Below, in pieces: positions 37,534 through 53,697 of a stretch of 64,000 bases of DNA. The stretch's first letter is position 1. Every line of letters starts with the position of its first letter. The notes under the pieces are model-generated. The model saw only the letters and a list, made by a program, of their open reading frames with translations. It made no database searches and was not told the origin of the DNA. The stretch is from Acidobacteriaceae bacterium (GTDB lineage Bacteria > Acidobacteriota > Terriglobia > Terriglobales > Acidobacteriaceae), in assembly GCA_049796755.1 (NCBI GenBank), contig JBARFA010000005.1, positions 2,625 to 66,624 of the forward strand, read 5' to 3'. Both the position numbers and the translations under genes were made by a program.

Positions 37534-40500
37534 CTAGGCGGGAAACAGCCGTTCCTGACGCGAGCGATCTGAATGCGAGTCGATTCCATGATTGCTGCTT
37601 TCGCCGGACGGAATTGATTTCCTTCGCGCGGCTACATGGCGAGGCGGCCGATTCCGAGTTCGGGGATGGTTCGCGCGGGCCTCCATTTCGGGACCAGTTG
37701 TTGCCGATTCCGATTCTGACTTTCCGTCGCGATAGGTGACCACCCGCCCGGAAATCGCGGACGCGCGCTTCCCAGGAACAACGATGTCAACCAGGTTCAT
37801 CGGGTCAGCGGCTGCCACGGCGATGTTTGTCGTGTTGGTCGCATCAGCGTTGCGCGTGCGAGCCAGACGCAGAGATTCAACTGCCTCCGGCAACGCATAT
37901 TGCTCCCCACTAAATCCGCTGACGAATCGCCCGCCACGCACCTCTCCCCGCGCTTCGAGGCGTCGCAACACTCCCAGCAATTCCCGCCACTTTGGCATCG
38001 TTGTCTCTCGTTTCAGCAGGTCACGAAACAAAATTCCATACCGCCGCAGCAAAACCCAGGCTGCTGACTCCATCGCCTCGTCATCGATTCTGGCTTGCTG
38101 CGAAGCGGCGGCATTCAAGACAGCGGCGTTGCGTAGCAGATACCAGCGTCCCGCCGCACTACGCAACCGCTTGCCAGGGTTTTTCATTCGCTGGATATGC
38201 GTTGCGGATTTGCGCTTGGAATCCATAATGGCGCGCAGCTGGTCGAATCCATCCGCAGCAGCTAAACCGGCGGCCGTCAATTCCCAGAGCGCGTGCTCCA
38301 CCTGTTCTGTGGTTAAGTCGGTAGTTCGCTGCAGTTCTTCCACAAAGCAGGCGCCGCGATCTTCCAGGCGCGTTCGAATTTGTTGTGCTTCCTGGCTCAA
38401 CGACTGGCGCAGTTTTGCTTTGTCGACCGCCTGGTTTTCCAGTACGGCGTCCAGCCAGAGCGCAGTCTCGCGGATATAAAACGTGATGGGAGACATACCC
38501 GTGGGAACCACTCTGCGCGGCGCACCAGCATCTGCCGCTGACCACGCCGGATGCGGCGAAACGCGGCCCCAGCCGACCGCACCCGACAGGCACAACTGAT
38601 CGAGCCAGCGAGGATCGTATCCGGTTACTCGATGTACCAGGAGCGACTGTTCCCATTCAACTGCGGGTGCTTCAAATCCTTCCAGTTGCGAGAGTGCCTG
38701 CAACACGCCTTGTTCACCACTCAATTGCGACTGCGGCGCGACGTGCTGCCATGCAAGCACCCACTGCATGTAGACAGCAGCCGACGCAGGCTCGATTTGT
38801 TTGCGCAAATTTCCAATCGTGAGGCGATGAATGCGCTGCAACAGGCGACGTTCGCACCATTCGACATCGAAATCCGAGGATCGTGCAGTTGTAGCGTTTT
38901 CAAAGGTCCCGCGCAGAATCGTTCCCTGCATTTCCAGTTGCAGCAGCTTCTGGAAAGTGTCGGAAGCGGGCAAACCCAGCAGAGATGCCAATGAATTTGC
39001 CGTCACCGGTCCGAGAATTTGCAGCCAACCCTGGACCAGCTTGATCACTGCGTCGCTATAGGCAACTGTATCGGTTACATATTCACCCTCAGACCAAAGG
39101 AATTTGGCCGAGGCTATGTTTTCCGTCGCGACCCAATAACCACCTGTCCGGACCTCCTCGACGCTGGCGCGCCCGGTTCGCTCAAGGCGCTCCAACAGCG
39201 ATGTCCACGAGTACGTTTCCTCCCGCTGCAATATGGACACAGGTAGCGCCACCAGCTGAAAGAGCAGGTCGTGCATTTCATGTTCATCGCGCAGATCCGG
39301 CCAGCACTCCGACCGCACAGCCGCAATCGCAGCCGGGTCGAGCTGCCCCGCATCCGCTTGCATGCTAGCGGGTAAGGTGCGGCGCATCGAGACCGCGCGT
39401 GCGCGACGCTCCTCCAACGGAGCATCGTCCAGAAATGCATAAGGATTCGCGTTCAACAATTCGTGCGCAAACTGTGAAGGAGCAGTGGTATCGATGGCGA
39501 CGCATTGGATCGAACCGTCAGCAAACCCTTGGAGCACGCGCTTCAGGCCGGCCAAGTCCATCGCCTCTCCCAGGACGTCTTTCATGACCTCCCGTACCAG
39601 CGGATGATTTGGAATTTTGCGGTCACCTTGGATATTTTCAAGACAGGCTGATACCTGGGGAAACACGCTGGCCAGAAGGTCGTCGGAACGAGTACGGAGA
39701 ATCTGCGGCGCGACTTTTTTTCCCTTTTGGAACCGTAACAGTTGCAAACTACGTCCCGCAGCCCATGTCCACCGCGACTTGAAGATCGGCGAATCTAATG
39801 CTGCCTGCTCCAGCAGTGCTTGCACCGTTTGCTGCGTGAGGAATTGAAACACATCACTCAGCGGAAAGCTGTGCTGCTCCGCCAGCGAAATGCAAAGGCC
39901 GTTGTCGGTGGCTGCGGCCTGCAATTCAAAATTGAAGCCCCGGCAAAAACGCTTGCGCAACGCCAAGCCCCAGGCCTTGTTGATGCGGCCGCCGAAAGGC
40001 GCATGCAAGATCAGCTGCATGCCTCCACCTTCATCAAAAAAACGTTCGGCAACGATTGTTGTCAGGGACGGCACCGCGCCAAGGGCGGCTCGACCCGCGG
40101 CGATGTAACCAATCATCTGCTCGGCGCCGCCATCGCACACGCCGCACTCCTGCTTCAGCCAACTGGCAGCGTCCGCCACACCCGCATGGGCATGCGACAC
40201 ATGGCCTGGCAATACCTTCGAAGTCCGAGCGGAAATTTCTTCGCGCAGACGCGCCACGTAGCCGCTTAAGACATCCGTGCGCTGCGGGGCTTCACCGGCC
40301 CAGAACGGTAGGTTCGGTGGCTGACCGTGCGCATCTTCAACGAACACTCGTCCCGTTTCGATTCCCTGAATTCGCCAGCTTGTGTTGCCCAGCAGGATCA
40401 CATCTCCCGCCGAAGAATCGATGGCGAAATGCTCATCGAGCGTCGCGATCTGCAGTCCTTCCGGCTGCATAATGACCGCGTATTGTGCGGTGTCGGGAAT

Positions 40501-42072
40501 CGTACCACCATTGCACACGGCGGCGAGTCTCGCACCGCGGCGGGCGTGCAATTCTCCGTGGATCGCATCCCGCATCACGAAAGCTCCATACCGACCGCGG
40601 CTGGATTCGATGCCGCGATGAAGAACCTGGATCAGTTCGTCAAACTCGCCCCGCGTCAGTTGGCGATACGGATGGGCGCGACGCAACACCGAGTAAAGTG
40701 CATCCTCATTCCACGATTCAGCGGCGCAGGCGGCGACAATTTGCTGCATCAAGACGTCGAGCGGCTGAGGTGGAATCTCCAGACGATCCAGGTCGCCGGC
40801 ACGCATTGCCTGCACCAGTGCGGCACATTCGATCAAGTCATCGCGGGTTGTAGCGAAAAAACGTCCCTTCGGAATGGCCCCTCGCCAGTGGCCGGCGCGG
40901 CCAATCCGCTGCATTCCCGCTGCAACTGCGCGCGTAGATCCCACCTGGCAAACAAGATCGATGGCGCCGATGTCAATACCCAGTTCCAGCGAAGCCGTGG
41001 CGACCAACAATTTGATTTCGCCATTTTTCAGCCGGATCTCCGCGTCCAGGCGCAGCTTGCGCGAAAGGCTGCCGTGATGCGCGGCGACATTTTCCGCACC
41101 GATGCGCTCGCCGATGGCATGCGAGAGCCGCTCGACCATGCGGCGCGTATTCACAAACACCAGTGTCGAACGATGCTCCTGTGCAAGCGCGGCCAGGCGA
41201 TCATATGTTTCGTCCCACATGTCATTCGTGGTCACGGAACCGAGCTCTTCACAGGTTGGAACTTCGACCGCAAGATCCATCGTGCGCCGCCGCCCCACCT
41301 GGACGATTTTCGCTGGATCGCGATCTTTCGCGCAGCCAATGAGAAACTCTCCGACCAGCTCGATTGGATTTTGTGTTGCCGACAATCCAATCCGCTGCGG
41401 CGGTTTCGTCGCTGTCGCCACACGCCCGGCCCGAGCGATAATATTTTCACCACACACCAGCGCTTCCAACCGCTCCAGTGACAACGCGAGGTGTGAGCCG
41501 CGCTTGTCATCCGCGACCGCATGAATTTCATCGACGATTACGGTGCGCACATGGCGAAGATTTTCGCGGCTGTTTTTTGAGGTCAACAGGATATACAGCG
41601 ACTCCGGCGTCGTCACCAGGATGTGCGGCGGCTTCTTCAGCATGGCCGCGCGTTCTGACGCCAGCGTGTCACCGGTGCGCACCGCAGTGCGAATTTCGCC
41701 GCACAGATAGCCGCGTTCCAGTGCGAGTTGTTGAATCTCCCTCAGAGGCTGATCGAGATTCTTCTGAATGTCGTTCGAGAGCGCCTTCAGCGGCGAAATG
41801 TACACCACCTCGGTATGCGGAGTCAGGGTGCCTGAAATCGCCTTGCGCAGCAGATGGTCGATGCAAACCAGAAACGCCGCGAGCGTTTTGCCAGAACCGG
41901 TAGGCGCGGAGATCAGCGTCGGATGACCAGCTTGAATATGCGGCCAACCCTCAATTTGCGGTTCTGTGGGTGTAGCAAATCGCCCAACAAACCACTCCTG
42001 CGTGATGGGATGCGCCCAATTGAGACTCGCTGGAATAGCGAGCTCGGCACCGATTTGTAGCGTCGGGGGCAT
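37534..42072 (-). CDS. lhr: ATP-dependent helicase Lhr (large helicase-related, SF2 DEAH with long C-terminal domain)
   Basis: 1512 aa. Walker A APTGSGKT, DEIH box (VIVDEIHAV), SAT (LSATQ), motif VI (QRIGRAGH), and a roughly 700-aa Lhr-type C-terminal extension. Confidence 0.9.
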   Translation of the reverse strand: MPPTLQIGAELAIPASLNWAHPITQEWFVGRFATPTEPQIEGWPHIQAGHPTLISAPTGSGKTLAAFLVCIDHLLRKAISGTLTPHTEVVYISPLKALSNDIQKNLDQPLREIQQLALERGYLCGEIRTAVRTGDTLASERAAMLKKPPHILVTTPESLYILLTSKNSRENLRHVRTVIVDEIHAVADDKRGSHLALSLERLEALVCGENIIARAGRVATATKPPQRIGLSATQNPIELVGEFLIGCAKDRDPAKIVQVGRRRTMDLAVEVPTCEELGSVTTNDMWDETYDRLAALAQEHRSTLVFVNTRRMVERLSHAIGERIGAENVAAHHGSLSRKLRLDAEIRLKNGEIKLLVATASLELGIDIGAIDLVCQVGSTRAVAAGMQRIGRAGHWRGAIPKGRFFATTRDDLIECAALVQAMRAGDLDRLEIPPQPLDVLMQQIVAACAAESWNEDALYSVLRRAHPYRQLTRGEFDELIQVLHRGIESSRGRYGAFVMRDAIHGELHARRGARLAAVCNGGTIPDTAQYAVIMQPEGLQIATLDEHFAIDSSAGDVILLGNTSWRIQGIETGRVFVEDAHGQPPNLPFWAGEAPQRTDVLSGYVARLREEISARTSKVLPGHVSHAHAGVADAASWLKQECGVCDGGAEQMIGYIAAGRAALGAVPSLTTIVAERFFDEGGGMQLILHAPFGGRINKAWGLALRKRFCRGFNFELQAAATDNGLCISLAEQHSFPLSDVFQFLTQQTVQALLEQAALDSPIFKSRWTWAAGRSLQLLRFQKGKKVAPQILRTRSDDLLASVFPQVSACLENIQGDRKIPNHPLVREVMKDVLGEAMDLAGLKRVLQGFADGSIQCVAIDTTAPSQFAHELLNANPYAFLDDAPLEERRARAVSMRRTLPASMQADAGQLDPAAIAAVRSECWPDLRDEHEMHDLLFQLVALPVSILQREETYSWTSLLERLERTGRASVEEVRTGGYWVATENIASAKFLWSEGEYVTDTVAYSDAVIKLVQGWLQILGPVTANSLASLLGLPASDTFQKLLQLEMQGTILRGTFENATTARSSDFDVEWCERRLLQRIHRLTIGNLRKQIEPASAAVYMQWVLAWQHVAPQSQLSGEQGVLQALSQLEGFEAPAVEWEQSLLVHRVTGYDPRWLDQLCLSGAVGWGRVSPHPAWSAADAGAPRRVVPTGMSPITFYIRETALWLDAVLENQAVDKAKLRQSLSQEAQQIRTRLEDRGACFVEELQRTTDLTTEQVEHALWELTAAGLAAADGFDQLRAIMDSKRKSATHIQRMKNPGKRLRSAAGRWYLLRNAAVLNAAASQQARIDDEAMESAAWVLLRRYGILFRDLLKRETTMPKWRELLGVLRRLEARGEVRGGRFVSGFSGEQYALPEAVESLRLARTRNADATNTTNIAVAAADPMNLVDIVVPGKRASAISGRVVTYRDGKSESESATTGPEMEARANHPRTRNRPPRHVAARRKSIPSGESSNHGIDSHSDRSRQERLFPA

Positions 42073-42893: not shown

Positions 42894-43646
42894 TCAGTCG
42901 CGACTCCGGACCTTTGCCAACAAATTTAAAATTTCGATGTACAGCCACACCAGGGTGACCATCAATCCAAACGCACCGTACCACTCCATATATTTCGGTG
43001 CCTGGGCGCGCACGCCACTCTCGATGAAATCAAAATCCAGCACCAGATTCAACGCCGCAATGATCACAACCACGACGCTGAAACCAATGCCGATGAGACC
43101 ATTGCCATTGATCGAGGCAAAGTGAATTCCGAAAAATCCCAGCACAATTTCAGCGATGTAGAGCAGCATGATGGCGCCGGTAGCCGCTACAACTCCCAGG
43201 CGAAACTTTTGTGTCACGGGAATTAGCCCAGAGCGATACGCCAGCAGCAAAACCAGCAGGGTTCCGAAGGTGAGACCCACGGATTGCATGGCGATGCCCG
43301 GATATCGCAGCTCGAGAACCGCGGAAATGCTGCCCAGCGCTAACCCTTCCAGCAGAGAGTACACAGGCGCAGTCACCGGAGCCCAGGCCTTTTTGAAAAT
43401 GGTGATCATCGCGAAAACCAAACCTCCGAGCAGGCCGATCCACATGAGGGGAAGGACGCTGGCGGCGGATCGCGTCTGCATGAAGACGTGCCACGCCCAG
43501 GCCGCGGATGCGCCAGCGCAAACCAGCAGAATTCCTGTTTTGTTCACCGTGCCATCCAGCGTCATGGATTCGCCAAGAGCAGCATGCTCGCCCTGAAAGA
43601 TCTGGGAATTCAACGCGGGATTCGAGGTCTTCATTAGTTGCGCCAT
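42894..43646 (-). CDS. Bax inhibitor-1/YccA family membrane protein
   Basis: About 7 TM segments, an SNPAL-type N-terminus, and a charged C-terminal tail, as is typical of the BI-1/YccA family. Confidence 0.8.
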   Translation of the reverse strand: MAQLMKTSNPALNSQIFQGEHAALGESMTLDGTVNKTGILLVCAGASAAWAWHVFMQTRSAASVLPLMWIGLLGGLVFAMITIFKKAWAPVTAPVYSLLEGLALGSISAVLELRYPGIAMQSVGLTFGTLLVLLLAYRSGLIPVTQKFRLGVVAATGAIMLLYIAEIVLGFFGIHFASINGNGLIGIGFSVVVVIIAALNLVLDFDFIESGVRAQAPKYMEWYGAFGLMVTLVWLYIEILNLLAKVRSRD

Positions 43647-43775
43647 AGTTCTCCTCTGTTACTACCATTCGTATACCACGTGGCGATTGTCGCACGCATT
43701 CTTGCCGGGCGCAGTATTGTCACACCGCAGAAATCATTCTCTGCAGCGATGCGCCAAGGCGCGGATCGAAGTCGT

Positions 43776-45539
43776 ATGATGGCTCATTGCGTGAATCTGA
43801 GATCTTTTTTCGAAGGACCGGTCAACGTGATTTCAAAGCTGAAAATCGTTTCGTGCGCGTGTCTGTTGATGTGCATCACCGCCTGCCTGCAGACCGCCGT
43901 TGCCCAGCCGAGTCGCGAGCAGTCGCGCTCCATGGTGATGACGCAGTATGGAATTGTAGCCACCAGCCAGGCCGTTGCATCGCAGGCCGGTGCGGCCATT
44001 CTTGCGCGTGGTGGCAACGCGGTAGATGCGGCCATTGCCGCCAACGCTGCGCTCGGCGTGATCGAGCCCATGATGAATGGGGTAGGCGGCGATCTGTTCG
44101 CGATTGTCTACGATGCCAAGACGAAAAAGCTGTATGGCCTGAACTCCAGTGGCTGGGCGCCGAAAGCCATGACCATCGACGATTTGAGGGCGAAGGGCAT
44201 CGTGAAGGAGGTTCCTGAGACTGGCATCCTTTCGGTGACTGTTCCTGGAGCGGTTGCGGGGTGGGATGCACTCCGGCAGAAATTCGGCAAGCTTTCCATG
44301 GCGGAAGACCTGGCGCCGGCGGTCGCGCTGGCGGAGCAAGGGATCGCCGTCACCGAAACGGATGCTGAAAACTGGCAGGAATTTGGACCGCAGTTCGCCG
44401 ACAGCCCAGGCTTTGCGCGCGTTTTTCTGCCCGATGGCCAAGCGCCGGCGGCCGGACAGCTGTTTCGCAATCCGGATCTAGCCGCGACGCTGCAACGCAT
44501 TGGGCAAAAAGGTCGCGATGGCTTTTACAAGGGCCAGACAGCGGATGCGATTTTGAAGCTATCGCAGCGGCTGCATGGATTTCTGCAGGCGGATGATCTC
44601 GCAGATTTTCAGCCGGAGTGGGTCGACCCTGTCAGCACCACCTACCGCGGATGGACCGTTTGGGAGATGCCGCCGAACGGACAGGGCATTGCCGCGCTCT
44701 CCATGCTGAACATCATGGAGCAATTTCCGATTGCGCAATGGGAGCACAACAGCCAAAAGTCTCTGCATGTCGAAATTGAGGCAAAAAAACTGGCCTATGC
44801 GGATATGCGATATTACGTCGGCGACCCACGCGCCACGCACATCCCGGTGCAACAACTCATCTCAAAAAAGTTGGCAGTGCGCCGCGCTGCGCAAATTAGT
44901 GACCGCGCGAACTGTAGCGTGTTGCCGTCTGACCTGACCGGACAACTCTCGCATCTGTCGAGCGACACAACGTATCTGGCAGTGGTCGATCATGACGGGA
45001 ATGAGGTGTCGCTGATCCAAAGCAATGCGGGAGCGTTTGGCAGCGGGTTGGTCGCCGATGGAACCGGATTCGTACTGCAAAATCGCGGATCGGCCTTCAC
45101 CCTGAAACCGAACCAGCCGAATACGCTGCGCCCGCGCACCCGCCCGCTGCACACCATTATTCCTGCCTTCATGCAGAAGGGCGACGAGCGCATCGCCTTC
45201 GGCATCATGGGCGGATTCAACCAGGCGCAGGCGCACGCGCAATTCGTGTCAAACATCGCGGACTTCCACATGAATATTCAGGCGGCGCTGGAGGCGGCTC
45301 GCTTCACCATGCCTTCATTCTCCGGTTGCAGCCTGTTGATGGAGAACGGCATCGCACCGCAGGTGATCGATGGCCTGCGGCAACAGGGGCACATCATTAA
45401 AGTTCTGCCGCGCTATTCGCAAAGTATGGGCCGTGGCAATGCGGTGCAGCACAACCTGCAAAGTGGAGTGAATTTCGGCGCTACCGATCCGCGCGCCGAT
45501 GGAGAAGCGGTTCCCGAGCAAATGCCGTTCCAGCCCTGA
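43776..45539 (+). CDS. ggt: gamma-glutamyltransferase
   Basis: Autoprocessing/nucleophile site SSDTTYLAVVD, plus GGFNQAQ and a signal peptide (ISKLKIVSCACLLMCITACLQTAVA). The start is uncertain: ATG at 43776 or GTG at 43827. The longest ORF (43638) would overlap the BI-1 gene. Confidence 0.9.
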   Translation: MMAHCVNLRSFFEGPVNVISKLKIVSCACLLMCITACLQTAVAQPSREQSRSMVMTQYGIVATSQAVASQAGAAILARGGNAVDAAIAANAALGVIEPMMNGVGGDLFAIVYDAKTKKLYGLNSSGWAPKAMTIDDLRAKGIVKEVPETGILSVTVPGAVAGWDALRQKFGKLSMAEDLAPAVALAEQGIAVTETDAENWQEFGPQFADSPGFARVFLPDGQAPAAGQLFRNPDLAATLQRIGQKGRDGFYKGQTADAILKLSQRLHGFLQADDLADFQPEWVDPVSTTYRGWTVWEMPPNGQGIAALSMLNIMEQFPIAQWEHNSQKSLHVEIEAKKLAYADMRYYVGDPRATHIPVQQLISKKLAVRRAAQISDRANCSVLPSDLTGQLSHLSSDTTYLAVVDHDGNEVSLIQSNAGAFGSGLVADGTGFVLQNRGSAFTLKPNQPNTLRPRTRPLHTIIPAFMQKGDERIAFGIMGGFNQAQAHAQFVSNIADFHMNIQAALEAARFTMPSFSGCSLLMENGIAPQVIDGLRQQGHIIKVLPRYSQSMGRGNAVQHNLQSGVNFGATDPRADGEAVPEQMPFQP

Positions 45540-45656: not shown

Positions 45657-45676
45657 CTATTACCCGTCGGTAATAG
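45657..45676. promoter_or_regulatory. perfect 8-bp inverted repeat upstream of the ABC operon
   Basis: CTATTACC-CGTC-GGTAATAG, 28 nt upstream of the ATG at 45704 and followed by ATACTTTTCTT. Confidence 0.3.
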
Positions 45677-45703: not shown

Positions 45704-46585
45704 ATGGCACTCACGATCACCAACATTTCCAAGGTCTATCCCAACGGCGTGCGCGCGCTGAAAAATCTTTCGCTCACTATTGGCAACAACATGTTTGGAC
45801 TTCTGGGTCCGAACGGCGCGGGAAAAAGTTCGTTGATGCGTACCATCGCCACCTTGCAGGATCCTGATTCCGGATCGATTGACCTTGACGGAGTGAACGT
45901 TCTGACGCAGAAAGATGCGGTGCGCAAGCTTCTCGGCTACCTCCCGCAGGAATTTGGGGTCTATCCCAGAATGTCGGCGATCGATATGTTGAACCATCTT
46001 GCGATTCTGAAGGGCGTGACGGTTGCAAGCGAACGTAAGGAGATGGTGGATGCGCTGCTGCAGCAAACCAATCTATGGGATGTGCGGAAGAAGGCCGTGT
46101 CCACCTACTCCGGCGGAATGAAGCAACGTTTTGGCATCGCGCAGGCGCTGCTCGCCAATCCACGACTGATTATTGTCGATGAGCCCACGGCCGGCCTTGA
46201 CCCCGCGGAGCGCAATCGCTTTCTGAATCTTCTTTCCTCCATCGGCCGCGATGTGATCGTCATTCTGTCGACCCACATTGTCGATGATGTGCGTGAACTC
46301 TGCCCGCGCATGGCCATCATTGCGTCCGGCGAGGTGCTGCTCGAAGGCTCGCCCAGCGAGGCTCTGGCTGCGCTCGAGGGTCAAATCTGGTCCAAGGTTG
46401 TCGCTACTGATGAGGAGCTTCGCGCCATCGAAGCCGAACTTCAGGTCATCAGTACGCACCTGGCCGGCGGCCAGCACGAGATTCGCGTTTTTGCTCCGGC
46501 CTCCCCAGGGTCCGGCTTCCATGCTGTCCCTTCGGGACTGGAGGATGTGTATTTCCTCAACCTGTCCCGCCAAGCGGTCAACTAA
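45704..46585 (+). CDS. ABC transporter ATP-binding protein (ABC-2 type)
   Basis: Walker A GPNGAGKSS, signature YSGGMKQR, Walker B LIIVDEPTAGLD, and H-loop STH. Confidence 0.9.
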   Translation: MALTITNISKVYPNGVRALKNLSLTIGNNMFGLLGPNGAGKSSLMRTIATLQDPDSGSIDLDGVNVLTQKDAVRKLLGYLPQEFGVYPRMSAIDMLNHLAILKGVTVASERKEMVDALLQQTNLWDVRKKAVSTYSGGMKQRFGIAQALLANPRLIIVDEPTAGLDPAERNRFLNLLSSIGRDVIVILSTHIVDDVRELCPRMAIIASGEVLLEGSPSEALAALEGQIWSKVVATDEELRAIEAELQVISTHLAGGQHEIRVFAPASPGSGFHAVPSGLEDVYFLNLSRQAVN

Positions 46586-46609
46586 ATCTCCGCCACCAAG
46601 GATCACGCC

Positions 46610-49600
46610 ATGGCAATGTTCTGGGAGTTTTTTACATTTGAACTTCGTTTCCGTCTGAAAAGCATCTCGACGTACGTCTACTTTGTGCTCTGGTTTACCT
46701 ACTCGTTTCTCTGCGTAGCGTCAGAGAGTTTCGGTCCAAGCGGATTTTCCAACGGCAAAGTCCTGCTGAACGGCCCTTACGCCAACAGCTTTAACGATCT
46801 TTACGCGTGCCTGTTCGGCATGATTATTATTGCCGCTATCTTTGGTACGTCGATTCTGCGCGACTTTCAGCGCGACACCTACCAGATACTGTTCACCAAG
46901 CCGATCACGAAGTTCGCCTACCTGGGCGGACGATGGGCTGGCTCACTTGTGACGACGGTACTGGTGTTTTCTGGATTGATGTTCGGCACCTTCGCGGGCA
47001 CGTTCGCCCCCTGGGCCGATCACACGCGGATCGCGCCGAACCACCTGTGGTGGTATCTGCAGCCGTTTCTTTCCATCGTCGTCATCCAGATCTTTTTTCT
47101 CGGCTCGCTCTTTTTCACGATTGCGGCACTGACCCGCAAGCTCTTCATCGTGTACCTGCAGGGCGTCACTCTGTTCATGATCTACGTCATTGGTATCACG
47201 GTGTATTCGGCGACGCGCTCGCTGGAGCATTTCTGGTCGGGAATTCTGGATCCCATTGGGTTGATCCTGAACGATAACGTCACCCGCTACTGGACCGTAA
47301 TCGAGAAGAACACGCTACTGCTTCCGTGGAATTTTTCCGGTGATTCGCCCGGTGTTTTCCTCTATAACCGACTGCTGTGGACGGCTGTCGGACTGGTGGC
47401 GCTGGTGGTCGCGTGGCGTTTCTTTCCTATCTCTGTCGAGGCACTCACCTCCAAATCGCAAAGTCGTCGTGCCGCAAAAGCAACGCTTCAGGATGAGGAA
47501 GAAAAGCGTTCAGTCCGCTCGCTGGTGGTCGCGAAATTACCGCGCATACGGCAGATTTTCGGTGCCCGCACCTCGTGGATCCAATATTTGTCGCTGACAC
47601 GGTTACGTATTCGAACCATCCGACGCGAAGTTTTTTTCTGGGCCATTGTCGGCCTGATGATTGTGTTCGCCATCAATAATGGCCACTTCGCGGGCCATCT
47701 CGGTGACGAGAATGTCTGGCCGGTCACCTACCTGATGCTGCAGGCGGTTGAGGGCGGCGCAACTCTGTTCTTCTACATCGTTGCGGTCTTCTACTCGGCG
47801 GAACTGATCTGGCGCGAGCGGGATAACCACTTCGACGGCATCCACGATGCGCTGCCAATTTCAGAGACCACCGACTGGCTCTCGAAACTCACGGCGATCG
47901 CGTTCGTCGAACTGGTTCTGCTGGCGGTCACGATGCTTGTCGGTGTCCTGATGCAGACCATCGCCGGCTACTACCATTACGAGTTCCTGCAATATTTCAA
48001 GGAACTGTACCTGATCACTTTCCCGCAGATCATGGGCATCGCGCTGTTGTCGATGTTTGTGCAGACCATCGTTTCAAACAAATTCGTCGGCTATGGAATT
48101 GTGATCGGCATTGTGGTGCTGCAGCCGATTCTCTTCAACTTTGGATGGGAAAACACCCTGTACCTTGTCGGCTGGGTCCCACCGTATACCTACTCCGACA
48201 TGAATGGCTACGGACATTTTGTTCCCATAATTTTCTGGTCCATTACATACTGGTTCGCGATATTTGCACTGCTGGGTGTCATTTCCATCGCGTATACACG
48301 CCGCGGAACAGAAGATTCGCTGGCGGCGAGGACGCGACTAGCGTTGGCCAGAGCGCCACGATTGGCTCCGGCAGCCATTGTATTTCTCTTGCTCGCAGTC
48401 GGATCGGGAGCCTGGTACTTTTACAACGCACACGTGTTGAATGAATTTCTGACGGCCAAAGATCGGCGGAATATCCAGGCTGGATACGAACGCGATTTTA
48501 AGAAGTACCAGTTGTTCCCCCAGCCCAAGGTGACAGCGGTCGACACCGACATCAACATCTATCCTGCGCGCAGATCGTTCGATGGCACGGCCCGGATTAC
48601 GCTGCAAAACAAGACGGACCAGCCAATTTCTCAGATTCACATTACCGACGAGCAACAGGCCGTTTCGAACGTCAGATTCGATCGGCCGTTCCACCTGGTC
48701 AGCCGTGCGCCGCGCGATCTATATTCCATCTACGCACTGGATCAGCCGCTGGCTCCTGGAGATGTCGTCACGCTCACGTGCACGGTGTCGCACACCACGC
48801 GCGGCTTCCGCGACGGCAATGAGCTCCCGGAGTTTGCCTACAACGGGACATTTTTCGACTCGAGTTTTTTCCCGACGATCGGATATGACCAGAGCTATGA
48901 ACTCTCCGACCCGCGCCGCCGCCGCGAAGAACACCTTGGCAAGCTGCAGGAGATGGCGCAGCGTGGAGATCCGGTCTATTCGCGCAGAAATCTTTTCGTT
49001 CCCAGTTCAGACTGGATTACCTTCCACACCATCGTCAGCACCTCGGCGGATCAAATCGCCATCGCTCCGGGCTATTTGCAGCGCACCTGGAAGCAGAACA
49101 ACCGGTATTACTACGAATACAGCATGGGATCCACGCACATCGCCGATTTCTTCGCGTTTCTGTCGGCTCGATACGCTACCCGAAAAGAGATCTACCACGG
49201 CCCCAACGGACCGGTGAACCTTGAGGTCTACTACTACCCCACTCACACCTACGATATTGATGACATGCTTGCCGCCAGCCGCGCCGGCCTCGATTATTAC
49301 CAGACCCACTACAGTCCGTATCAGTTCACGCAATATCGCATCATGGAGTTTCCGCGCTATCGCGACTTTGCGCAGTCGTTTCCCAACACTGTGCCATTTT
49401 CAGAGGGGATCGGTTTCATCGGACGCATGGTGCATAAGAATGATATCGACCTGACGTATTTTGTCACTGCACACGAGCTGGGCCATCAATGGTGGGGCCA
49501 TCAGCTGATCGGCGGGCAGGTGCAAGGGTCGAACATGCTGTCGGAAACTCTGGCGCAGTATTCCGCCTACATGGTTGTGCAGCACAGATACGGCAAGGAC

Positions 49601-50302
49601 TACATGCACAGAGTCCTGCGCCACTTTCTCGATCGCTATCTGCGAGGCCGTGCAGGAGAAATTCGTCATGAGCCGCCGCTGTCCTTGGTGCAACGCGAAC
49701 CATACGTCTGGTATGAAAAGGGCGGCCAGATCATGTACACCCTCGCCGACTATATTGGCGAGGACAAGATGGATCTGGCGCTGCACAACTTCCTGATGCA
49801 GTACCGGTATGCGAATGCCAACAACCAGGCAGACGCCGCCGACAGCACGCGCGGCGCCGGTACGCAAGACCAGCCCTATCCGGACACACGCATGCTGATC
49901 GCGGCCATTCGCGCCCAGACGCCGCCACAGTTCCAATACATGATCGATGACGGTTTCAATCGCATCGTGATCTACGATAACAAGGCCCTGTCAGCGACCT
50001 CTCAGAAGACAGCGGATGGTAAATACAAAGTCACGCTGAAAGTCCAGGCGCGCAAGTTCCAGGCAGACGGCAATGGATTTGAGACTCGGATGCCGCTGGC
50101 CGACTATATCGAAATCGGCGTCTTCACCGGCAAGAAGGATGAGGAAAAGCCCCTGTATATGCAGAAAGTAAAAATGACACAGGAGCACGAGACCTACACC
50201 ATCGTTGTGGATCAGCAACCCACACGCGCCGGAATCGATCCGTACAACAAATTGATTGACCGCATAGCCGACGACAACATGATTGATGTAACCCGTGAAT
50301 AA
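46610..50302 (+). CDS. ABC-2 permease fused to M1-family (gluzincin) peptidase domain
   Basis: The N-terminal about 560 aa is polytopic and hydrophobic. The C-terminal half carries HELGH (49472-49486) with a downstream Glu in MLSETLAQY, and a degenerate GXMEN-like RIMEFP. Confidence 0.85.
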   Translation: MAMFWEFFTFELRFRLKSISTYVYFVLWFTYSFLCVASESFGPSGFSNGKVLLNGPYANSFNDLYACLFGMIIIAAIFGTSILRDFQRDTYQILFTKPITKFAYLGGRWAGSLVTTVLVFSGLMFGTFAGTFAPWADHTRIAPNHLWWYLQPFLSIVVIQIFFLGSLFFTIAALTRKLFIVYLQGVTLFMIYVIGITVYSATRSLEHFWSGILDPIGLILNDNVTRYWTVIEKNTLLLPWNFSGDSPGVFLYNRLLWTAVGLVALVVAWRFFPISVEALTSKSQSRRAAKATLQDEEEKRSVRSLVVAKLPRIRQIFGARTSWIQYLSLTRLRIRTIRREVFFWAIVGLMIVFAINNGHFAGHLGDENVWPVTYLMLQAVEGGATLFFYIVAVFYSAELIWRERDNHFDGIHDALPISETTDWLSKLTAIAFVELVLLAVTMLVGVLMQTIAGYYHYEFLQYFKELYLITFPQIMGIALLSMFVQTIVSNKFVGYGIVIGIVVLQPILFNFGWENTLYLVGWVPPYTYSDMNGYGHFVPIIFWSITYWFAIFALLGVISIAYTRRGTEDSLAARTRLALARAPRLAPAAIVFLLLAVGSGAWYFYNAHVLNEFLTAKDRRNIQAGYERDFKKYQLFPQPKVTAVDTDINIYPARRSFDGTARITLQNKTDQPISQIHITDEQQAVSNVRFDRPFHLVSRAPRDLYSIYALDQPLAPGDVVTLTCTVSHTTRGFRDGNELPEFAYNGTFFDSSFFPTIGYDQSYELSDPRRRREEHLGKLQEMAQRGDPVYSRRNLFVPSSDWITFHTIVSTSADQIAIAPGYLQRTWKQNNRYYYEYSMGSTHIADFFAFLSARYATRKEIYHGPNGPVNLEVYYYPTHTYDIDDMLAASRAGLDYYQTHYSPYQFTQYRIMEFPRYRDFAQSFPNTVPFSEGIGFIGRMVHKNDIDLTYFVTAHELGHQWWGHQLIGGQVQGSNMLSETLAQYSAYMVVQHRYGKDYMHRVLRHFLDRYLRGRAGEIRHEPPLSLVQREPYVWYEKGGQIMYTLADYIGEDKMDLALHNFLMQYRYANANNQADAADSTRGAGTQDQPYPDTRMLIAAIRAQTPPQFQYMIDDGFNRIVIYDNKALSATSQKTADGKYKVTLKVQARKFQADGNGFETRMPLADYIEIGVFTGKKDEEKPLYMQKVKMTQEHETYTIVVDQQPTRAGIDPYNKLIDRIADDNMIDVTRE

Positions 50303-50447: not shown

Positions 50448-51965
50448 ATGAGCGGCTCAACGAAACTCTCTTCTGCCCCCGCGCGCCTGCGGGACCGCCT
50501 GCTGAGCGGATATGAGCCCGCGCCTCCAGAGTCTATTTCGCGGCTCGAATATTACCCCTGGCTCGTTGTCGGCGCCACCTGCATCGGCGCCTTCATCGGC
50601 CAGCTGGATGCCAGCATCGTCCAGCTGGCACTGCCCGCACTGGAGCGTGAATTCCACGCCACACTGACGGCCGTCAGCTGGGTCGCTATTGCCTACCTGG
50701 TGGCGCTTGCATCCCTTTTGCCTGTTTTCGCACGCCTGTCTGAAATCTTCGGGCGGAAACTTCTCTATCTCGGTGGCTATGGGATGTTCACCGCAGCCTC
50801 CCTGATGTGCGGATTGGTTGGGCGGCTGGATCTGCTCATCCTGTTCCGCGTGATTCAAGGAGTGGGCGGAGCGCTATTGGGCGCCAACAGCCTTACTATT
50901 CTAGTGAAAGCGGCTGGACCTGCGAGACGCGGCCGCGCCATGGGATTATTCGCCGCTGCTCAGGCTGTAGGCATCAGCGCAGGGCCTGTCGTTGGCGGTG
51001 TGCTGCTGGGAATGCTGGGATGGCGCTGGGTGTTTTGGGTTTCTGTCCCATTCGGACTCGCAGGTATTGTCTTCGGCTGGTTCGTTTTGCCGAAGACTGC
51101 CGGCCTGGCAGTGGAGAAGCGATTCGACTGGAAGGGTGCACTGCTTTTGACGCCTGCCGTTGTCTCGCTGGTCGTCATCTTGAGCGAATTTCGCGCTTGG
51201 GGTCCGCGCTCAATCCCGTTGATCGGCACCGTTCTGGCAGCCGCAGTTCTGTTGCCGCTTTTTGCCTGGCGCGAACGCAAAGCAGCGGCTCCTCTGATTG
51301 ACCTTCATCTGTTTCGCATTCCGGCCTTTACCGGCGGCGTGATCGCGGTAAACCTTTCCTATGCGCTGTTGTATTCCATGTTCTTCCTGATGTCCTTCGC
51401 GTTCATTCGCGGCTTTGGTGATTCGCCGATTTCGGCCGGCCTCCGTCTCGCCATTATTCCAGTTGCACTGGGGCTGGTAGCACCCATCAGCGGCGCTATG
51501 TATGAGCGGTTGGGCGCCAGAACTGTGACGACTGTGGGTATGGCGCTTTCCCTTGGCGCTATGGTTTTGTTGTCAAAAACGCTCACTGGTGCGCTTGGGG
51601 GTGGCATTCCACGAATGGGTGCGCTGGCTCTGTTCGGCATTGGGCTCGGATTGTTCGTCGCCCCGAATAACAGTGCCACCATCGCTGCGGCTCCAGAAGA
51701 TCGTTCCGGCGAGGCAGGGGGCATGCTGAACCTGATGCGGGTGCTGGGATGCATCGTGGGTGTGGCGACGGCTTCCACCGCGCTTTCATGGCGCCTCGCG
51801 GTAATGACCGGCGTAGGAGACCACACCCTGGGCGTTCCCACACAAACGGTGCTGACGGCGGCGAATAATGTGTTGTGGATCCTGGGCACATTTGGAGTGG
51901 TTGCGGGGATTGCGGCTCTGATGCGCTCCCATCTTCAACCGTCACCCGCCCAAGCGGCCCGGTAG
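50448..51965 (+). CDS. MFS transporter, DHA2 (EmrB/QacA-like, 14-TMS) family
   Basis: 505 aa with about 14 hydrophobic segments and a motif-A-like GRLSEIFGRK-type loop (ARLSEIFGRKLL). Confidence 0.85.
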   Translation: MSGSTKLSSAPARLRDRLLSGYEPAPPESISRLEYYPWLVVGATCIGAFIGQLDASIVQLALPALEREFHATLTAVSWVAIAYLVALASLLPVFARLSEIFGRKLLYLGGYGMFTAASLMCGLVGRLDLLILFRVIQGVGGALLGANSLTILVKAAGPARRGRAMGLFAAAQAVGISAGPVVGGVLLGMLGWRWVFWVSVPFGLAGIVFGWFVLPKTAGLAVEKRFDWKGALLLTPAVVSLVVILSEFRAWGPRSIPLIGTVLAAAVLLPLFAWRERKAAAPLIDLHLFRIPAFTGGVIAVNLSYALLYSMFFLMSFAFIRGFGDSPISAGLRLAIIPVALGLVAPISGAMYERLGARTVTTVGMALSLGAMVLLSKTLTGALGGGIPRMGALALFGIGLGLFVAPNNSATIAAAPEDRSGEAGGMLNLMRVLGCIVGVATASTALSWRLAVMTGVGDHTLGVPTQTVLTAANNVLWILGTFGVVAGIAALMRSHLQPSPAQAAR

Positions 51966-52890: not shown

Positions 52891-53697
52891 ATGTATTGGG
52901 TTTACGATCTGCCAAACTGGCTGTTTGAGCTGCTCACCATATCTCTGTTTATCGCCTTCGGCCTGGCAGGACTGCTCGCCAGTCGGAGGATGATTCGCCG
53001 CGTTCACCTGCAGCACTCCTACAACGACATCGTCGGATTTTATCTGGCCGGAATCACGGTTCTGTACGGAGTTACGCTAGGCCTGCTGGCGATCGGAGCG
53101 TGGACGACCTATACCGACACAGAAGCGAAGGTGGCTCGAGAGGCGGCGGCCGTCGCCAGCCTCTATCGCACCGTCGGAAGCTTGGAAGAGCCGATGCGGA
53201 GCGTGCTGCAACAGGATATTCGCGACTACACCATAAGTGTCATTAAGATTGGCTGGCCGGAACAGCAGCGAGGAATTGTCCCCACCGAAAACCGCGTCGC
53301 GCTGGATAAGTTTCGCCGGGATTTTCGCAAGTGGGAACCGGCCACCGAGGCGGACAAAGTTCTTGAGCAGGATATCTCGCGAGAATTCGACGCTCTCGAA
53401 ACAACTCGCAGCATCCGTCTGGACAGCGTAACGGACGAACTACCGTCACCCCTGTGGGCGTTAATTATGATAGGCGCGGCGATCTGTATCATCTCAACCT
53501 GGTTCTTTCATATGCAGAGCTTGAAAATGCACATCTGGATGACCGTCCTTTTCTCCGCACTGATCGGGCTGATGGTGTTTATGGTGGCGGCGCTCGATAA
53601 TCCCTATCGCGGAAAAATCAGCGTGAAACCCGAGCCTTTGGAGCGCGTATATCAGCAGATGATCCATCCGCGCCAGTATCCCGGACCAACGCAATGA
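52891..53697 (+). CDS. DUF4239-like membrane protein
   Basis: Two N-terminal and two C-terminal TM segments flank a soluble helical region. Its stop overlaps the start of the SDR gene (ATGA). Confidence 0.5.
   Translation: MYWVYDLPNWLFELLTISLFIAFGLAGLLASRRMIRRVHLQHSYNDIVGFYLAGITVLYGVTLGLLAIGAWTTYTDTEAKVAREAAAVASLYRTVGSLEEPMRSVLQQDIRDYTISVIKIGWPEQQRGIVPTENRVALDKFRRDFRKWEPATEADKVLEQDISREFDALETTRSIRLDSVTDELPSPLWALIMIGAAICIISTWFFHMQSLKMHIWMTVLFSALIGLMVFMVAALDNPYRGKISVKPEPLERVYQQMIHPRQYPGPTQ

What the first reader, a model, noticed from the sequence alone, without database searches (positions are those of the whole stretch)
45704..50302. ABC ATPase plus a 1230-aa ABC-2 permease fused to an M1 zinc-peptidase domain
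This is a two-gene operon with a 24-nt gap. A standard ABC-2 ATPase is followed by one polypeptide whose first about 560 aa are polytopic membrane segments. Its C-terminal about 650 aa carry an M1 gluzincin active site (HELGH at 49472-49486, with a downstream Glu in MLSETLAQY). The exopeptidase GXMEN motif is degenerate (RIMEFP, Asn replaced). This suggests altered substrate N-terminus recognition, or a role that is not aminopeptidase activity. Physically coupling a peptidase to an ABC membrane domain implies processing linked to transport, or mechanotransmission to an extracytoplasmic protease. Such fusions are annotated in databases, but to my knowledge they are not functionally characterised.
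Basis: partly seen in the sequence, partly recalled or inferred. Interest (0 to 1): 0.6.

Follow-up and report, generated by a model that had tools for sequence, protein, structure and literature searches.

The report
ABC transporter fused to periplasmic peptidase
A soil acidobacterium carries a two-gene ABC transporter whose membrane subunit is fused to a zinc peptidase that sits outside the cytoplasmic membrane; this fusion family is widespread and already catalogued, but nobody has found out what it does.

Summary
An ABC ATPase (45704-46585) lies 24 nt upstream of a 1230-aa protein (46610-50302) that has 13 membrane helices followed by an M1-type zinc peptidase.

It is not an artefact. Contigs from four independent soil runs cross the fusion junction without indels. 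77 of 83 loci from several phyla carry the same single ORF of about 1200 aa, and the ATPase is always adjacent.

What I added:
- Charge bias and a confident AlphaFold model (pLDDT 89, pTM 0.86) place the peptidase in the periplasm.
- The membrane part is two ABC-2 (type V exporter) domains in tandem. The nearest solved structures are NosY and Mycobacterium Rv1217c.
- HExxH, the third zinc ligand and the catalytic Tyr are kept across 368 relatives.
- The true counterpart of GAMEN is FAQSF (920-924), not RIMEFP, and no relative examined has a GxMEN.
- The helical cap domain of M1 enzymes is absent.
- No third gene is conserved nearby.

The architecture was already described in 2013 for Myxococcus Q1D520 (TCDB 3.A.1.145), and NCBI names it "ABC transporter permease/M1 family aminopeptidase". 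I found no functional study.

My best guess (about 0.4) is that the transporter pushes or extracts a peptide-like substrate into its tethered peptidase, which does not need a free N-terminus. This is a new member of a known, uncharacterised kind, of moderate interest.

The parts
45704..46585 (+). ABC ATPase (nucleotide-binding subunit, 293 aa), expected to act as a homodimer. Walker A is at 45806-45829, the Q-loop at 45941-45952, the signature YSGGMKQR at 46106-46129, Walker B LIIVDEP at 46166-46186 and the H-loop at 46265-46276. There is a C-terminal extension of about 70 aa.
   Evidence: PF00005 at 1e-30. The best NCBIfam partial matches are DrrA and GldA-type ABC-2 ATPases, all below their cutoffs. 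Motifs were located. A 53-87% identical homologue is adjacent in 76/76 loci that include the flank.
46586..46609 (+). 24-nt intergenic spacer with an AAGGA ribosome-binding site, implying co-transcription of the two genes.
   Evidence: Sequence read directly.
46610..47509 (+). TMD1 (aa 1-300): an N-terminal amphipathic connecting helix (aa 2-17) and TM1-TM6, with short periplasmic helices between TM5 and TM6 (aa 208-235). It is followed by a basic cytoplasmic linker (aa 272-318; 14 K/R in loop 277-336).
   Evidence: Hydropathy and positive-inside analysis. AF2 secondary structure. Weak PF12679 match. Family-profile hits to PmtD and NosY.
47564..48292 (+). TMD2 (aa 319-561): a second connecting helix (aa 319-339) and TM7-TM12. 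The conserved periplasmic loop YSDMNGYGHF (aa 528-537) is at 48191-48220.
   Evidence: PF12730 at 2e-13, above the gathering score. AF2 models. Conservation analysis.
48320..48508 (+). 13th transmembrane helix and periplasmic stalk (aa 571-633). It carries the chain from the cytoplasm to the periplasm and tethers the peptidase.
   Evidence: A basic loop precedes the helix (R565, R574 conserved).
48527..49249 (+). Periplasmic beta-rich N-terminal domain of the M1 fold (aa 640-880).
   Evidence: AF2 strands. Foldseek alignments of about 600 columns to ERAP1, ERAP2, IRAP and APN.
49250..49963 (+). Thermolysin-like catalytic domain (aa 881-1118). The GAMEN-equivalent FAQSF is at 49367-49381. HELGH is at 49472-49486. 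The third zinc ligand E979 is at 49544-49546. The catalytic Tyr Y1035 (YEKGG) is at 49712-49714. The invariant E913 within RIMEFP is at 49337-49354.
   Evidence: PF01433 above the gathering score. Alignments to ERAP2 and PepN. Residue conservation in 128-368 relatives.
49964..50302 (+). C-terminal beta-sandwich (aa 1119-1200), a conserved tail AGIDPYNKLIDRxxDDN (aa 1204-1223) and the stop codon. The helical domain IV of classical M1 enzymes is absent.
   Evidence: AF2. Conservation. The tail (aa 1201-1230) was not modelled.

Best explanation
This is an acidobacterial orthologue of the catalogued but uncharacterised ABC family TC 3.A.1.145.

Composition (shown): two copies of the 293-aa ATPase would power one 1230-aa membrane subunit. 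That subunit holds two ABC-2 (type V exporter-fold) membrane domains in tandem, a 13th helix that takes the chain out of the cytoplasm, and a periplasmic M1-lineage zinc peptidase packed against the transporter's outer face. The peptidase keeps all of its catalytic chemistry: HExxH, the third zinc ligand Glu and the transition-state Tyr. It has lost the GAMEN glutamate that anchors a substrate's free N-terminus, and it has lost the helical lid domain.

Mechanism (inferred): like other type V exporters, which expel hydrophobic or amphipathic cargo from the membrane or cytoplasm at the periplasmic gate, the ATP cycle delivers a peptide-like substrate directly into the tethered active site. Candidate substrates are membrane-embedded or amphipathic peptides, lipopeptides or N-blocked peptides. 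The peptidase then cuts the substrate without needing a free N-terminus, acting as an endopeptidase or blocked-end peptidase. The outcome would be destruction or processing of the cargo.
For: Architecture and topology:
- K+R residues total about 32 in the predicted cytoplasmic loops against about 6 in the periplasmic loops, and there are 13 TM helices.
- The AF2 full-length model has pLDDT 89.3 and pTM 0.86. Two halves of about 600 aa could not reach that pTM unless their mutual placement were confident, which implies a defined peptidase-transporter interface.

Type V exporter fold:
- Foldseek of the membrane part finds NosY (TMt up to 0.74).
- Over all ~610 columns it matches the tandem-TMD drug exporter Rv1217c (TMq 0.51-0.54), followed by PmtD, ABCG and ABCA transporters.
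- Rv1217c has the same subunit layout and a periplasm-facing hydrophobic cavity (PMC11406275).
- The family profile also hits the peptide exporter PmtD and NosY by sequence.

Active enzyme:
- HExxH is present in all 368 full-length relatives.
- A Glu follows 19 residues later in 305 of the 362 with a locatable HExxHQW, and YxKG is present in 355 of those 362.
- H955, E956, H959, E979 and Y1035 are invariant in alignments of sequences with 31-55% identity.

Loss of exopeptidase features:
- GAMEN aligns to FA[QE][SA]F, and no relative examined has a GxMEN.
- The GAMEN Glu is the residue that binds the substrate N-terminus, and M1 enzymes can act as endopeptidases (AplP and NosP; PMC13039773).
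- Domain IV is absent.

Coupling:
- Single ORFs of 1150-1313 aa occur in 77 of 83 loci across Acidobacteriota, Bacteroidota, Gemmatimonadota, Myxococcota, Planctomycetota and Pseudomonadota.
- The ATPase is always adjacent.
- The transporter's periplasmic loops are more conserved (0.53-0.63 for four of the six) than its TM helices (0.36-0.51) or cytoplasmic loops (0.42-0.46).

Precedent:
- The ABC system YbbAP-TesA is described as a periplasmic hydrolase complex that extracts hydrophobic compounds from the inner membrane (PMC12646458, abstract seen).
Against: - No substrate is known or hinted at. No third gene is conserved next to the pair in 83 loci, and there is no regulatory RNA or conserved leader upstream.
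- The closest structural relative of the membrane domain, NosFY, moves no substrate across the membrane as far as I know (from memory). It works by mechanotransmission.
- Loss of GAMEN shows that N-terminus anchoring is altered. It does not show endopeptidase activity. The invariant E913 or E932 might compensate for the lost Glu in space.
- There are no expression or phenotype data.
Confidence: 0.4

Rival explanations
1. Mechanotransmission without transport. As in NosDFY or FtsEX-EnvC, nothing crosses the membrane. ATP binding and hydrolysis in the cytoplasm flex the membrane domains, and this opens, closes or repositions the tethered periplasmic peptidase. Periplasmic proteolysis would then be switched on only when the cell spends ATP.
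For: - NosY is the best structural and one of the best sequence matches for the membrane domain.
- The AF2 model implies a rigid, confident interface between the peptidase and the membrane part (pTM 0.86).
- The periplasmic loops are conserved.
- The M1 lid (domain IV) that normally gates the active site is missing, so another gate would be useful.
Against: - The other structural relatives (Rv1217c, PmtCD, ABCG, ABCA) are true exporters.
- No conserved partner or substrate protein is encoded nearby.
- A covalent fusion to a single-chain tandem TMD is compatible with both models.
Confidence: 0.27
2. Co-localisation only. The transporter exports some small molecule, such as an amino acid or derivative (as suggested when TC 3.A.1.145 was defined), or a drug or lipid. 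The peptidase is simply a membrane-anchored nutritional or housekeeping periplasmic peptidase that uses the permease as its anchor. There is no mechanistic coupling.
For: - The only published comment on the family proposes export of an amino acid, a derivative or a product of amino acid metabolism (PMC3924187).
- The host phyla are mostly soil and aquatic bacteria; from my own knowledge many of them degrade polymers.
- In one MAG (L005) the gene is interrupted exactly at TM13. This would leave a separately anchored peptidase if the split is real.
Against: - A single TM helix would suffice as an anchor.
- The fusion and its length are kept across at least six phyla at only 30-40% identity.
- The periplasmic loops of the transporter are unusually conserved.
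- AF2 predicts a fixed interdomain arrangement.
- Loss of GAMEN argues against an ordinary nutritional aminopeptidase.
Confidence: 0.2
3. Uptake system. The periplasmic M1 domain acts as a built-in substrate-binding or processing module that captures peptides, trims them and hands the products to the ABC domains for import.
For: The extracytoplasmic domain is tethered to the membrane subunit, as in some importers with fused binding proteins (general knowledge). The hosts are mostly soil and aquatic bacteria.
Against: - The membrane domains have the type V exporter fold. All of their structural relatives found here are exporters, flippases or mechanotransducers.
- There is no similarity to type I/II importer permeases or to substrate-binding proteins.
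Confidence: 0.06
4. Inactive pseudo-peptidase or artefact. Either the M1 domain is a non-catalytic binding module, or the long ORF is an assembly or frameshift chimera.
For: - GAMEN is absent.
- The NCBIfam aminopeptidase N model scores far below its cutoff (29.7 against 591).
- One MAG locus (L005) shows a frame break.
Against: - All zinc ligands, the catalytic Glu and the Tyr are invariant across distant relatives.
- Contigs from four independent runs cross the junction without indels.
- 77 of 83 loci have the intact ORF.
Confidence: 0.03

Closest known systems
TCDB family 3.A.1.145 (prototype Myxococcus xanthus Q1D520; PMC3924187). NCBI's name for the protein is 'ABC transporter permease/M1 family aminopeptidase'.
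   Same: About 1200 aa, 13 TM segments, an N-terminal ABC-2 domain and a C-terminal zinc M1 peptidase domain. It is functionally uncharacterised. Myxococcal relatives of the window protein are 36-39% identical over the full length.
   Different: Nothing architectural differs.
Mycobacterium tuberculosis Rv1217c-Rv1218c (type V ABC drug exporter; PDB 8k1m-8k1p)
   Same: Two non-identical ABC-2 TMDs in one polypeptide, plus a separately encoded ATPase that forms a homodimer. Connecting helices, coupling helices and extracellular helices are present. Foldseek aligns about 610 columns.
   Different: Rv1217c has no 13th helix and no extracytoplasmic enzyme domain. Sequence identity is only 12-13%. 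Its host is not a classical diderm.
NosDFY (NosY permease; PDB 7o0y, 7znq, 7qba)
   Same: It is the best structural match for a single TMD (TMt 0.67-0.74), with a weak sequence match. It is an ABC-2 system whose job is carried out by a periplasmic protein docked on the permease.
   Different: NosY is a single 6-TM domain that dimerises. NosD is a separate protein and is not a peptidase. Its function is copper-site maturation of N2O reductase (from memory).
PmtCD (Staphylococcus phenol-soluble-modulin exporter; PDB 6xjh)
   Same: An ABC-2 permease related by both sequence profile (E 5e-4) and fold. Its cargo is amphipathic peptides.
   Different: It has no fused peptidase, its permease is homodimeric, and its host is a monoderm.
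Classical M1 aminopeptidases (E. coli PepN, ERAP1/2, APN)
   Same: The N-terminal beta domain and thermolysin-like catalytic domain are shared, together with HExxH, the Glu ligand and the catalytic Tyr. Foldseek E is 1e-18 and the Pfam PF01433 threshold is passed.
   Different: GAMEN is replaced by FAQSF. The spacing is HExxH-X19-E instead of X18. There is no helical domain IV. The domain is tethered to a transporter. The protein fails NCBIfam's aminopeptidase N model.
Two-domain M1 peptidase of Deinococcus radiodurans (PDB 6a8z) and the bifunctional M1 leader peptidases AplP, EryP and NosP
   Same: M1dr also lacks domain IV (TMt about 0.7). AplP, EryP and NosP show that the M1 fold can support endopeptidase cleavage.
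   Different: All of these are soluble. NosP, AplP and PepN keep GAMEN (PMC13039773).
Other ABC-hydrolase couples: PCAT1 (C39 peptidase-containing exporter), YbbAP-TesA and FtsEX-EnvC
   Same: They share the concept of an ABC motor joined to a hydrolase, or of one controlling a hydrolase (abstracts seen).
   Different: PCAT1's peptidase is a cytoplasmic cysteine protease on a type IV fold. YbbAP and FtsEX are type VII (MacB-like) systems, and their hydrolases are separate proteins.

Membership tests
ABC ATPase (PF00005) | Walker A, Q-loop, ABC signature, Walker B with the catalytic Glu, and H-loop | tested here: met
   GPNGAGKS, LPQE, YSGGMKQR, LIIVDEP and LSTH were located. PF00005 scores 107 bits against a cutoff of 25.
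ABC-2 / type V exporter membrane domain | Pfam ABC-2 model above the gathering score | tested here: met
   PF12730 scores 50.9 bits against 27 for TMD2. TMD1 gives only a sub-threshold PF12679 match of 21.1 bits against 27.2.
ABC-2 / type V exporter membrane domain | Six TM helices per domain with the N-terminus inside, an N-terminal connecting helix, a coupling helix between TM2 and TM3, and short extracellular helices between TM5 and TM6 | tested here: met
   AF2 secondary structure shows H2-17 and H319-339 (connecting helices), H91-94 and H409-414 (coupling helices) and H208-235 (extracellular helices in TMD1). The corresponding loop in TMD2 has no helices. The feature list is taken from PMC11406275.
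ABC-2 / type V exporter membrane domain | Fold similarity to solved type V transporters | tested here: met
   Foldseek gives NosY with TMt 0.67-0.74 and Rv1217c with TMq 0.51-0.54 over about 610 columns, then PmtD, ABCG and ABCA. E-values are modest (2.5e-3 and weaker).
Peptidase family M1 | Pfam Peptidase_M1 above the gathering score, and the M1 fold | tested here: met
   PF01433 scores 42.6 bits against 27.7. Foldseek to ERAP1 gives E 2e-18 over about 600 columns.
Peptidase family M1 | HEXXH-X18-E zinc site and catalytic Tyr | tested here: met
   HELGH 955-959, E979 (19 residues after the motif rather than 18) and Y1035 are present. They are invariant in relatives.
Peptidase family M1 | GXMEN exopeptidase motif (the Glu binds the substrate's free N-terminus) | tested here: not met
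   GAMEN aligns with FAQSF 920-924. No GxMEN was seen in 368 relatives.
Peptidase family M1 | C-terminal helical domain (ERAP1_C / domain IV) capping the active site | tested here: not met
   Only a beta-sandwich follows the catalytic domain. The best compact match is the two-domain M1dr.
Aminopeptidase N (NCBIfam TIGR02412 equivalog) | Score above the curated cutoff | tested here: not met
   29.7 bits against a cutoff of 591.2.
TCDB 3.A.1.145 (ABC-2 permease fused to M1 peptidase) | About 1200 aa, 13 TMSs, an N-terminal ABC-2 domain and a C-terminal M1 zinc peptidase | tested here: met
   compared with the description in PMC3924187.
TCDB 3.A.1.145 (ABC-2 permease fused to M1 peptidase) | Significant full-length sequence similarity to the prototype Q1D520 | not tested
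   The Q1D520 sequence was not at hand. Full-length homologues from Myxococcaceae and Myxococcales (P0276 at 39% identity, L021 at 36%) make membership very likely.
TCDB 3.A.1.145 (ABC-2 permease fused to M1 peptidase) | A dedicated ATPase partner | tested here: met
   An ATPase is adjacent in 76/76 loci that include flanking DNA. It is upstream in all but L017, where it is downstream.

The most novel reading that the evidence does not exclude
The pair is the first example of an 'extract-and-cut' machine. A type V ABC transporter would pull membrane-embedded or amphipathic peptides out of the inner membrane and feed them, under ATP control, into a chamber formed with its own lid-less M1-derived endopeptidase. 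Candidate substrates are signal-peptide remnants, lipopeptides or antimicrobial peptides. This would be a previously unrecognised envelope quality-control or peptide-antibiotic resistance mechanism, found here in six phyla, all of them (to my knowledge) diderm.
Probability: 0.25. Interest if true: 0.7.

Novelty: new member of a known kind. Interest (0 to 1): 0.4.

Why it matters
The family is large: at least 1354 clusters at 50% identity match the peptidase domain at E<1e-30. It occurs in many soil, aquatic and some opportunistic bacteria, including Stenotrophomonas maltophilia, yet it has no known function.

It joins a type V ABC motor covalently to an extracytoplasmic metallopeptidase that has lost the hallmarks of an aminopeptidase. 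Solving its function would add a new job to the ABC repertoire, either ATP-coupled periplasmic proteolysis or peptide disposal. It would also show how an M1 scaffold is re-purposed.

For this window specifically, the gene is an ordinary, intact member of that family.

Tried and rejected
- **Genomic context for a substrate or partner.** I clustered ORFs from 83 loci. Only the ATPase and the fusion protein are conserved. The neighbours in the window (gamma-glutamyltranspeptidase upstream, DHA2 MFS pump downstream) are not conserved elsewhere.
- **Upstream regulatory RNA or leader.** Rfam gave only a chance-level hit, and the alignment of upstream regions shows no conservation. The hairpin at 45657-45676 is not conserved.
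- **Anti-phage defence models.** PADLOC gave only generic ATPase matches and nothing for the fusion protein.
- **Internal duplication of the two TMDs by BLAST.** No significant similarity. The tandem nature rests on Pfam and on structure.
- **Global hhalign against E. coli PepN.** It gave a different, low-confidence register that put E932 opposite the GAMEN Glu. I rejected it because two HMMER alignments (ERAP2 and PepN), the motif-to-HExxH spacing (32 against 33 residues) and the predicted strand pattern all favour FAQSF=GAMEN.
- **The N-domain residue equivalent to PepN E121.** I could not align it reliably.
- **Stand-alone versions.** The short hits in the representative search begin inside TM helices and look like fragments.
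- **Literature.** Searches on fusion names, the TCDB family name and cryo-EM terms found only the 2013 cataloguing paper.
- **Model coordinates.** They are not exposed by the tools. The distance between the active site and the transporter gate, and the position of E913, could therefore not be measured.

Full report

Yes. On the + strand an ATG-initiated ORF of 293 aa (45704-46585) is followed, after 24 nt that contain an AAGGA Shine-Dalgarno, by an ORF of 1230 aa (46610-50302).

The first protein is a complete ABC ATPase. It matches PF00005 at 1e-30 and has Walker A GPNGAGKS, Q-loop, signature YSGGMKQR, Walker B LIIVDEP and H-loop.

The second passes Pfam's gathering scores for an ABC-2 membrane domain (PF12730, aa 337-501) and for Peptidase_M1 (PF01433, aa 894-1073). 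HELGH is at 49472-49486 and the Glu of MLSETLAQY is E979.

The long ORF is not an artefact:
- Contigs assembled independently from four soil metagenome runs cross the junction between the membrane part and the peptidase (about 48290-48440) with no insertions, deletions or joints.
- The same architecture of about 1200 aa recurs in thousands of database proteins.
- It is a single ORF in 77 of 83 loci. Four of the six exceptions are cut by contig ends; the other two, L005 and L059, are described in section 6.

**2. Anatomy**

Hydropathy analysis finds 13 membrane helices. The predicted cytoplasmic loops hold about 32 Lys+Arg, including a 60-residue linker with 14. The periplasmic loops hold about 6. 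The N-terminus is therefore inside, and everything after helix 13 (aa ~604-1230) is outside the cytoplasmic membrane.

AlphaFold2, run on an alignment of 141 homologues, gave a confident model of residues 1-1200 (pLDDT 89.3, pTM 0.86). Its parts are:
- an amphipathic N-terminal helix plus six TM helices;
- a disordered basic linker;
- a second amphipathic helix plus six TM helices;
- a long 13th helix and a stalk helix;
- a beta-rich domain (aa 640-875);
- a helical catalytic domain (aa 883-1117);
- a small beta-sandwich (aa 1119-1200).

A pTM of 0.86 for a chain made of two halves of about 600 residues implies that the predicted packing of the peptidase on the transporter is itself confident. 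This is my inference. The tools did not expose coordinates.

The membrane part was modelled on its own (pLDDT 89.8) and searched against the PDB. It matches NosY of NosDFY (TMt up to 0.74). Over its full length (~610 columns, TMq 0.51-0.54) it matches Rv1217c of Mycobacterium tuberculosis, and then PmtD, ABCG and ABCA transporters. Rv1217c-Rv1218c has exactly this subunit logic: two non-identical type V membrane domains in one chain, an ATPase homodimer, connecting and coupling helices, and a periplasm-facing hydrophobic cavity (PMC11406275). A sequence profile of the family also reaches PmtD (5e-4) and NosY (1e-3). The 'ABC-2 permease' is therefore a tandem, pseudo-heterodimeric type V exporter module.

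**3. The peptidase**

By sequence (ERAP2 at 5e-8 with the single sequence and 6.5e-16 with the family profile) and by fold (ERAP1, ERAP2, IRAP and APN at 1e-18 to 1e-16 over about 600 columns), the ectodomain is of the M1 lineage.

The catalytic apparatus is intact and conserved. H955, E956, H959, E979 and Y1035 are invariant in alignments of relatives that are only 31-55% identical. Among 368 full-length relatives every one has HExxH. Among the 362 with a locatable HExxHQW, 305 have the ligand Glu exactly 19 residues later and 355 have YxKG.

The exopeptidase motif is a different matter. Three HMMER alignments, two to ERAP2 and one to E. coli PepN, place GAMEN opposite F920-A-Q-S-F924. The family-wide consensus is FA[QE][SA]F and no relative examined has a GxMEN. 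Its Glu (E913) is nevertheless invariant and remains unexplained.

The GAMEN glutamate is the residue thought to bind the free N-terminus of the substrate (PMC13039773). Its replacement by Ser argues that this enzyme does not recognise substrates in the way an aminopeptidase does.

The helical domain IV, which caps the active site in PepN and ERAP, is absent. The best compact structural match is the two-domain M1 peptidase of Deinococcus (TMt about 0.7). M1 enzymes with endopeptidase activity are known (AplP, EryP, NosP). NCBIfam's aminopeptidase N model is missed by a wide margin (29.7 bits against 591).

**4. Distribution and context**

The window comes from a soil acidobacterium. The best hits are Acidobacteriaceae MAG proteins at up to 93% identity, and the near-identical DNA is found only in soil metagenome runs.

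The peptidase domain alone finds 1354 clusters (50% identity level) at E<1e-30. Of the best 150, 128 are 1150-1280 aa long and the remaining 22 look like fragments.

In one-genome-per-species data at least 400 species carry a relative. The best 80 are spread over Acidobacteriota, Bacteroidota, Gemmatimonadota, Myxococcota, Planctomycetota and Pseudomonadota, including Janthinobacterium, Stenotrophomonas maltophilia, Brevundimonas and Maricaulis. To my knowledge these are all diderm phyla, which fits a periplasmic role.

A 53-87% identical ATPase gene is adjacent in all 76 loci that include the flank. No other gene family is shared by more than 6 of the 83 loci, and the flanks differ even between close relatives. 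There is no conserved leader or known RNA element upstream. The unit is a self-contained two-gene module.

Within the transporter, the periplasmic loops are more conserved than the TM helices or cytoplasmic loops. Examples are LDPxG...TRYWT..EKNT between TM5 and TM6, and YSDMNGYGHF between TM11 and TM12. Since periplasmic loops are not usually the best-conserved part of an exporter (my expectation, not tested here), this points to function at the outer face.

**5. How it most likely works**

Shown:
- the composition, the topology and the type V fold;
- an intact zinc-peptidase centre;
- the loss of GAMEN and of the lid domain;
- obligate pairing with the ATPase.

Inferred: the ATP cycle of the transporter delivers a peptide-like cargo from the membrane or cytoplasm to the tethered active site, which cleaves it without needing a free N-terminus. 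I put this at about 0.4.

The main rival, at about 0.27, is NosDFY- or FtsEX-style mechanotransmission, in which ATP turnover merely gates the peptidase. Simple co-localisation of an exporter and an anchored peptidase is about 0.2. This is the essence of the only published comment, which suggested export of an amino acid or derivative (PMC3924187). An uptake system (about 0.06) and a pseudo-enzyme or artefact (about 0.03) are unlikely.

The discriminating experiments are listed under the next steps.

**6. What is known, and novelty**

The architecture is not new. Getsin et al. 2013 (PMC3924187) described Myxococcus xanthus Q1D520 (1200 aa, 13 TMSs) as an ABC-2 domain fused to a zinc M1 peptidase domain, and created TCDB family 3.A.1.145 for it. 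NCBI's pipeline names such proteins 'ABC transporter permease/M1 family aminopeptidase'. I found no experimental study of them.

The window's genes are therefore a new member of a known, uncharacterised kind. The points added here are:
- the periplasmic placement of the peptidase;
- the tandem type V organisation, with NosY and Rv1217c as the nearest structures;
- the family-wide FAQSF replacement and the absence of domain IV;
- the strict two-gene module;
- the distribution across six phyla.

Interest is moderate (0.4). It is a real and widespread open question, but not a surprise to anyone who has browsed TCDB, and nothing in this particular locus is unusual.

Variants noticed in other loci:
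- an Edaphobacter MAG in which the gene changes frame exactly at TM13;
- a Flavobacteriaceae MAG that lacks the C-terminal beta-sandwich;
- one locus with the ATPase downstream.

Noticed in passing
L005:5001-8655 (Edaphobacter sp. MAG, JAOAPF010000035.1): The orthologue is in two frames. Query aa 1-570 match frame 3, and aa 591-1230 match frame 1. The break falls exactly at the 13th helix that separates transporter from peptidase. It is either a sequencing frameshift or a natural split into a permease plus a TM-anchored peptidase.
   Followed up: partly
L059:5001-8294 (Flavobacteriaceae MAG); L017:749-5277: The L059 protein stops at the equivalent of aa ~1120 and so lacks the C-terminal beta-sandwich. 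In L017 the ATPase gene lies just downstream of the fusion gene instead of upstream.
   Followed up: partly
window 50219-50278 (aa 1204-1223): The extreme C-terminal tail AGIDPYNKLIDRxxDDN is among the most conserved stretches outside the active site (P1204, D1210, P1211, D1217 and N1223 at >=90%). It lay beyond the 1200-residue limit of the structure prediction, so its position is unknown. It could dock on the transporter or in the active site.
   Followed up: no
window 49346-49348 (E913) and 49403-49405 (E932): Two glutamates flanking the GAMEN-equivalent are invariant in the family. E913 lies in the strand RIxEFP, and E932 aligns with the Glu of the 'TYRE' segment of ERAP2. Either might substitute spatially for the lost GAMEN glutamate. 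This could not be checked without coordinates.
   Followed up: partly
window 43638-45539 (+) and 50448-51965 (+): The flanking genes on the same strand are a gamma-glutamyltranspeptidase (PF01019, 7e-146; the ORF as listed starts at TTG) and a DHA2-family MFS efflux permease (TIGR00711 above its cutoff). Neither neighbour is conserved next to the module in other genomes.
   Followed up: yes
window 45657-45676 (+): There is an 8-bp hairpin, CTATTACC-CGTC-GGTAATAG, followed by a T-rich run, 28 nt before the ATPase start codon. It is probably the terminator of the upstream gamma-glutamyltranspeptidase gene. It is not conserved in related loci and has no Rfam match.
   Followed up: yes
L003 (JANXZQ010000470.1, labelled Gammaproteobacteria MAG): This is the closest species-level locus (74% protein identity, with an ATPase 84% identical), yet it sits in a MAG labelled Gammaproteobacteria. 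All other close relatives are Acidobacteriota. The contig is probably mis-binned.
   Followed up: no
window 37534-42072 (-), 29157-31626 (-), 52891-53697 (+): Other genes in the window are a 1512-aa Lhr-type large helicase, two adjacent Cys/Met-metabolism PLP enzymes whose listed ORFs overlap by 137 nt (so the upstream gene's true start is probably further in), and a bestrophin-like channel protein. Together they look like an ordinary chromosomal neighbourhood.
   Followed up: partly
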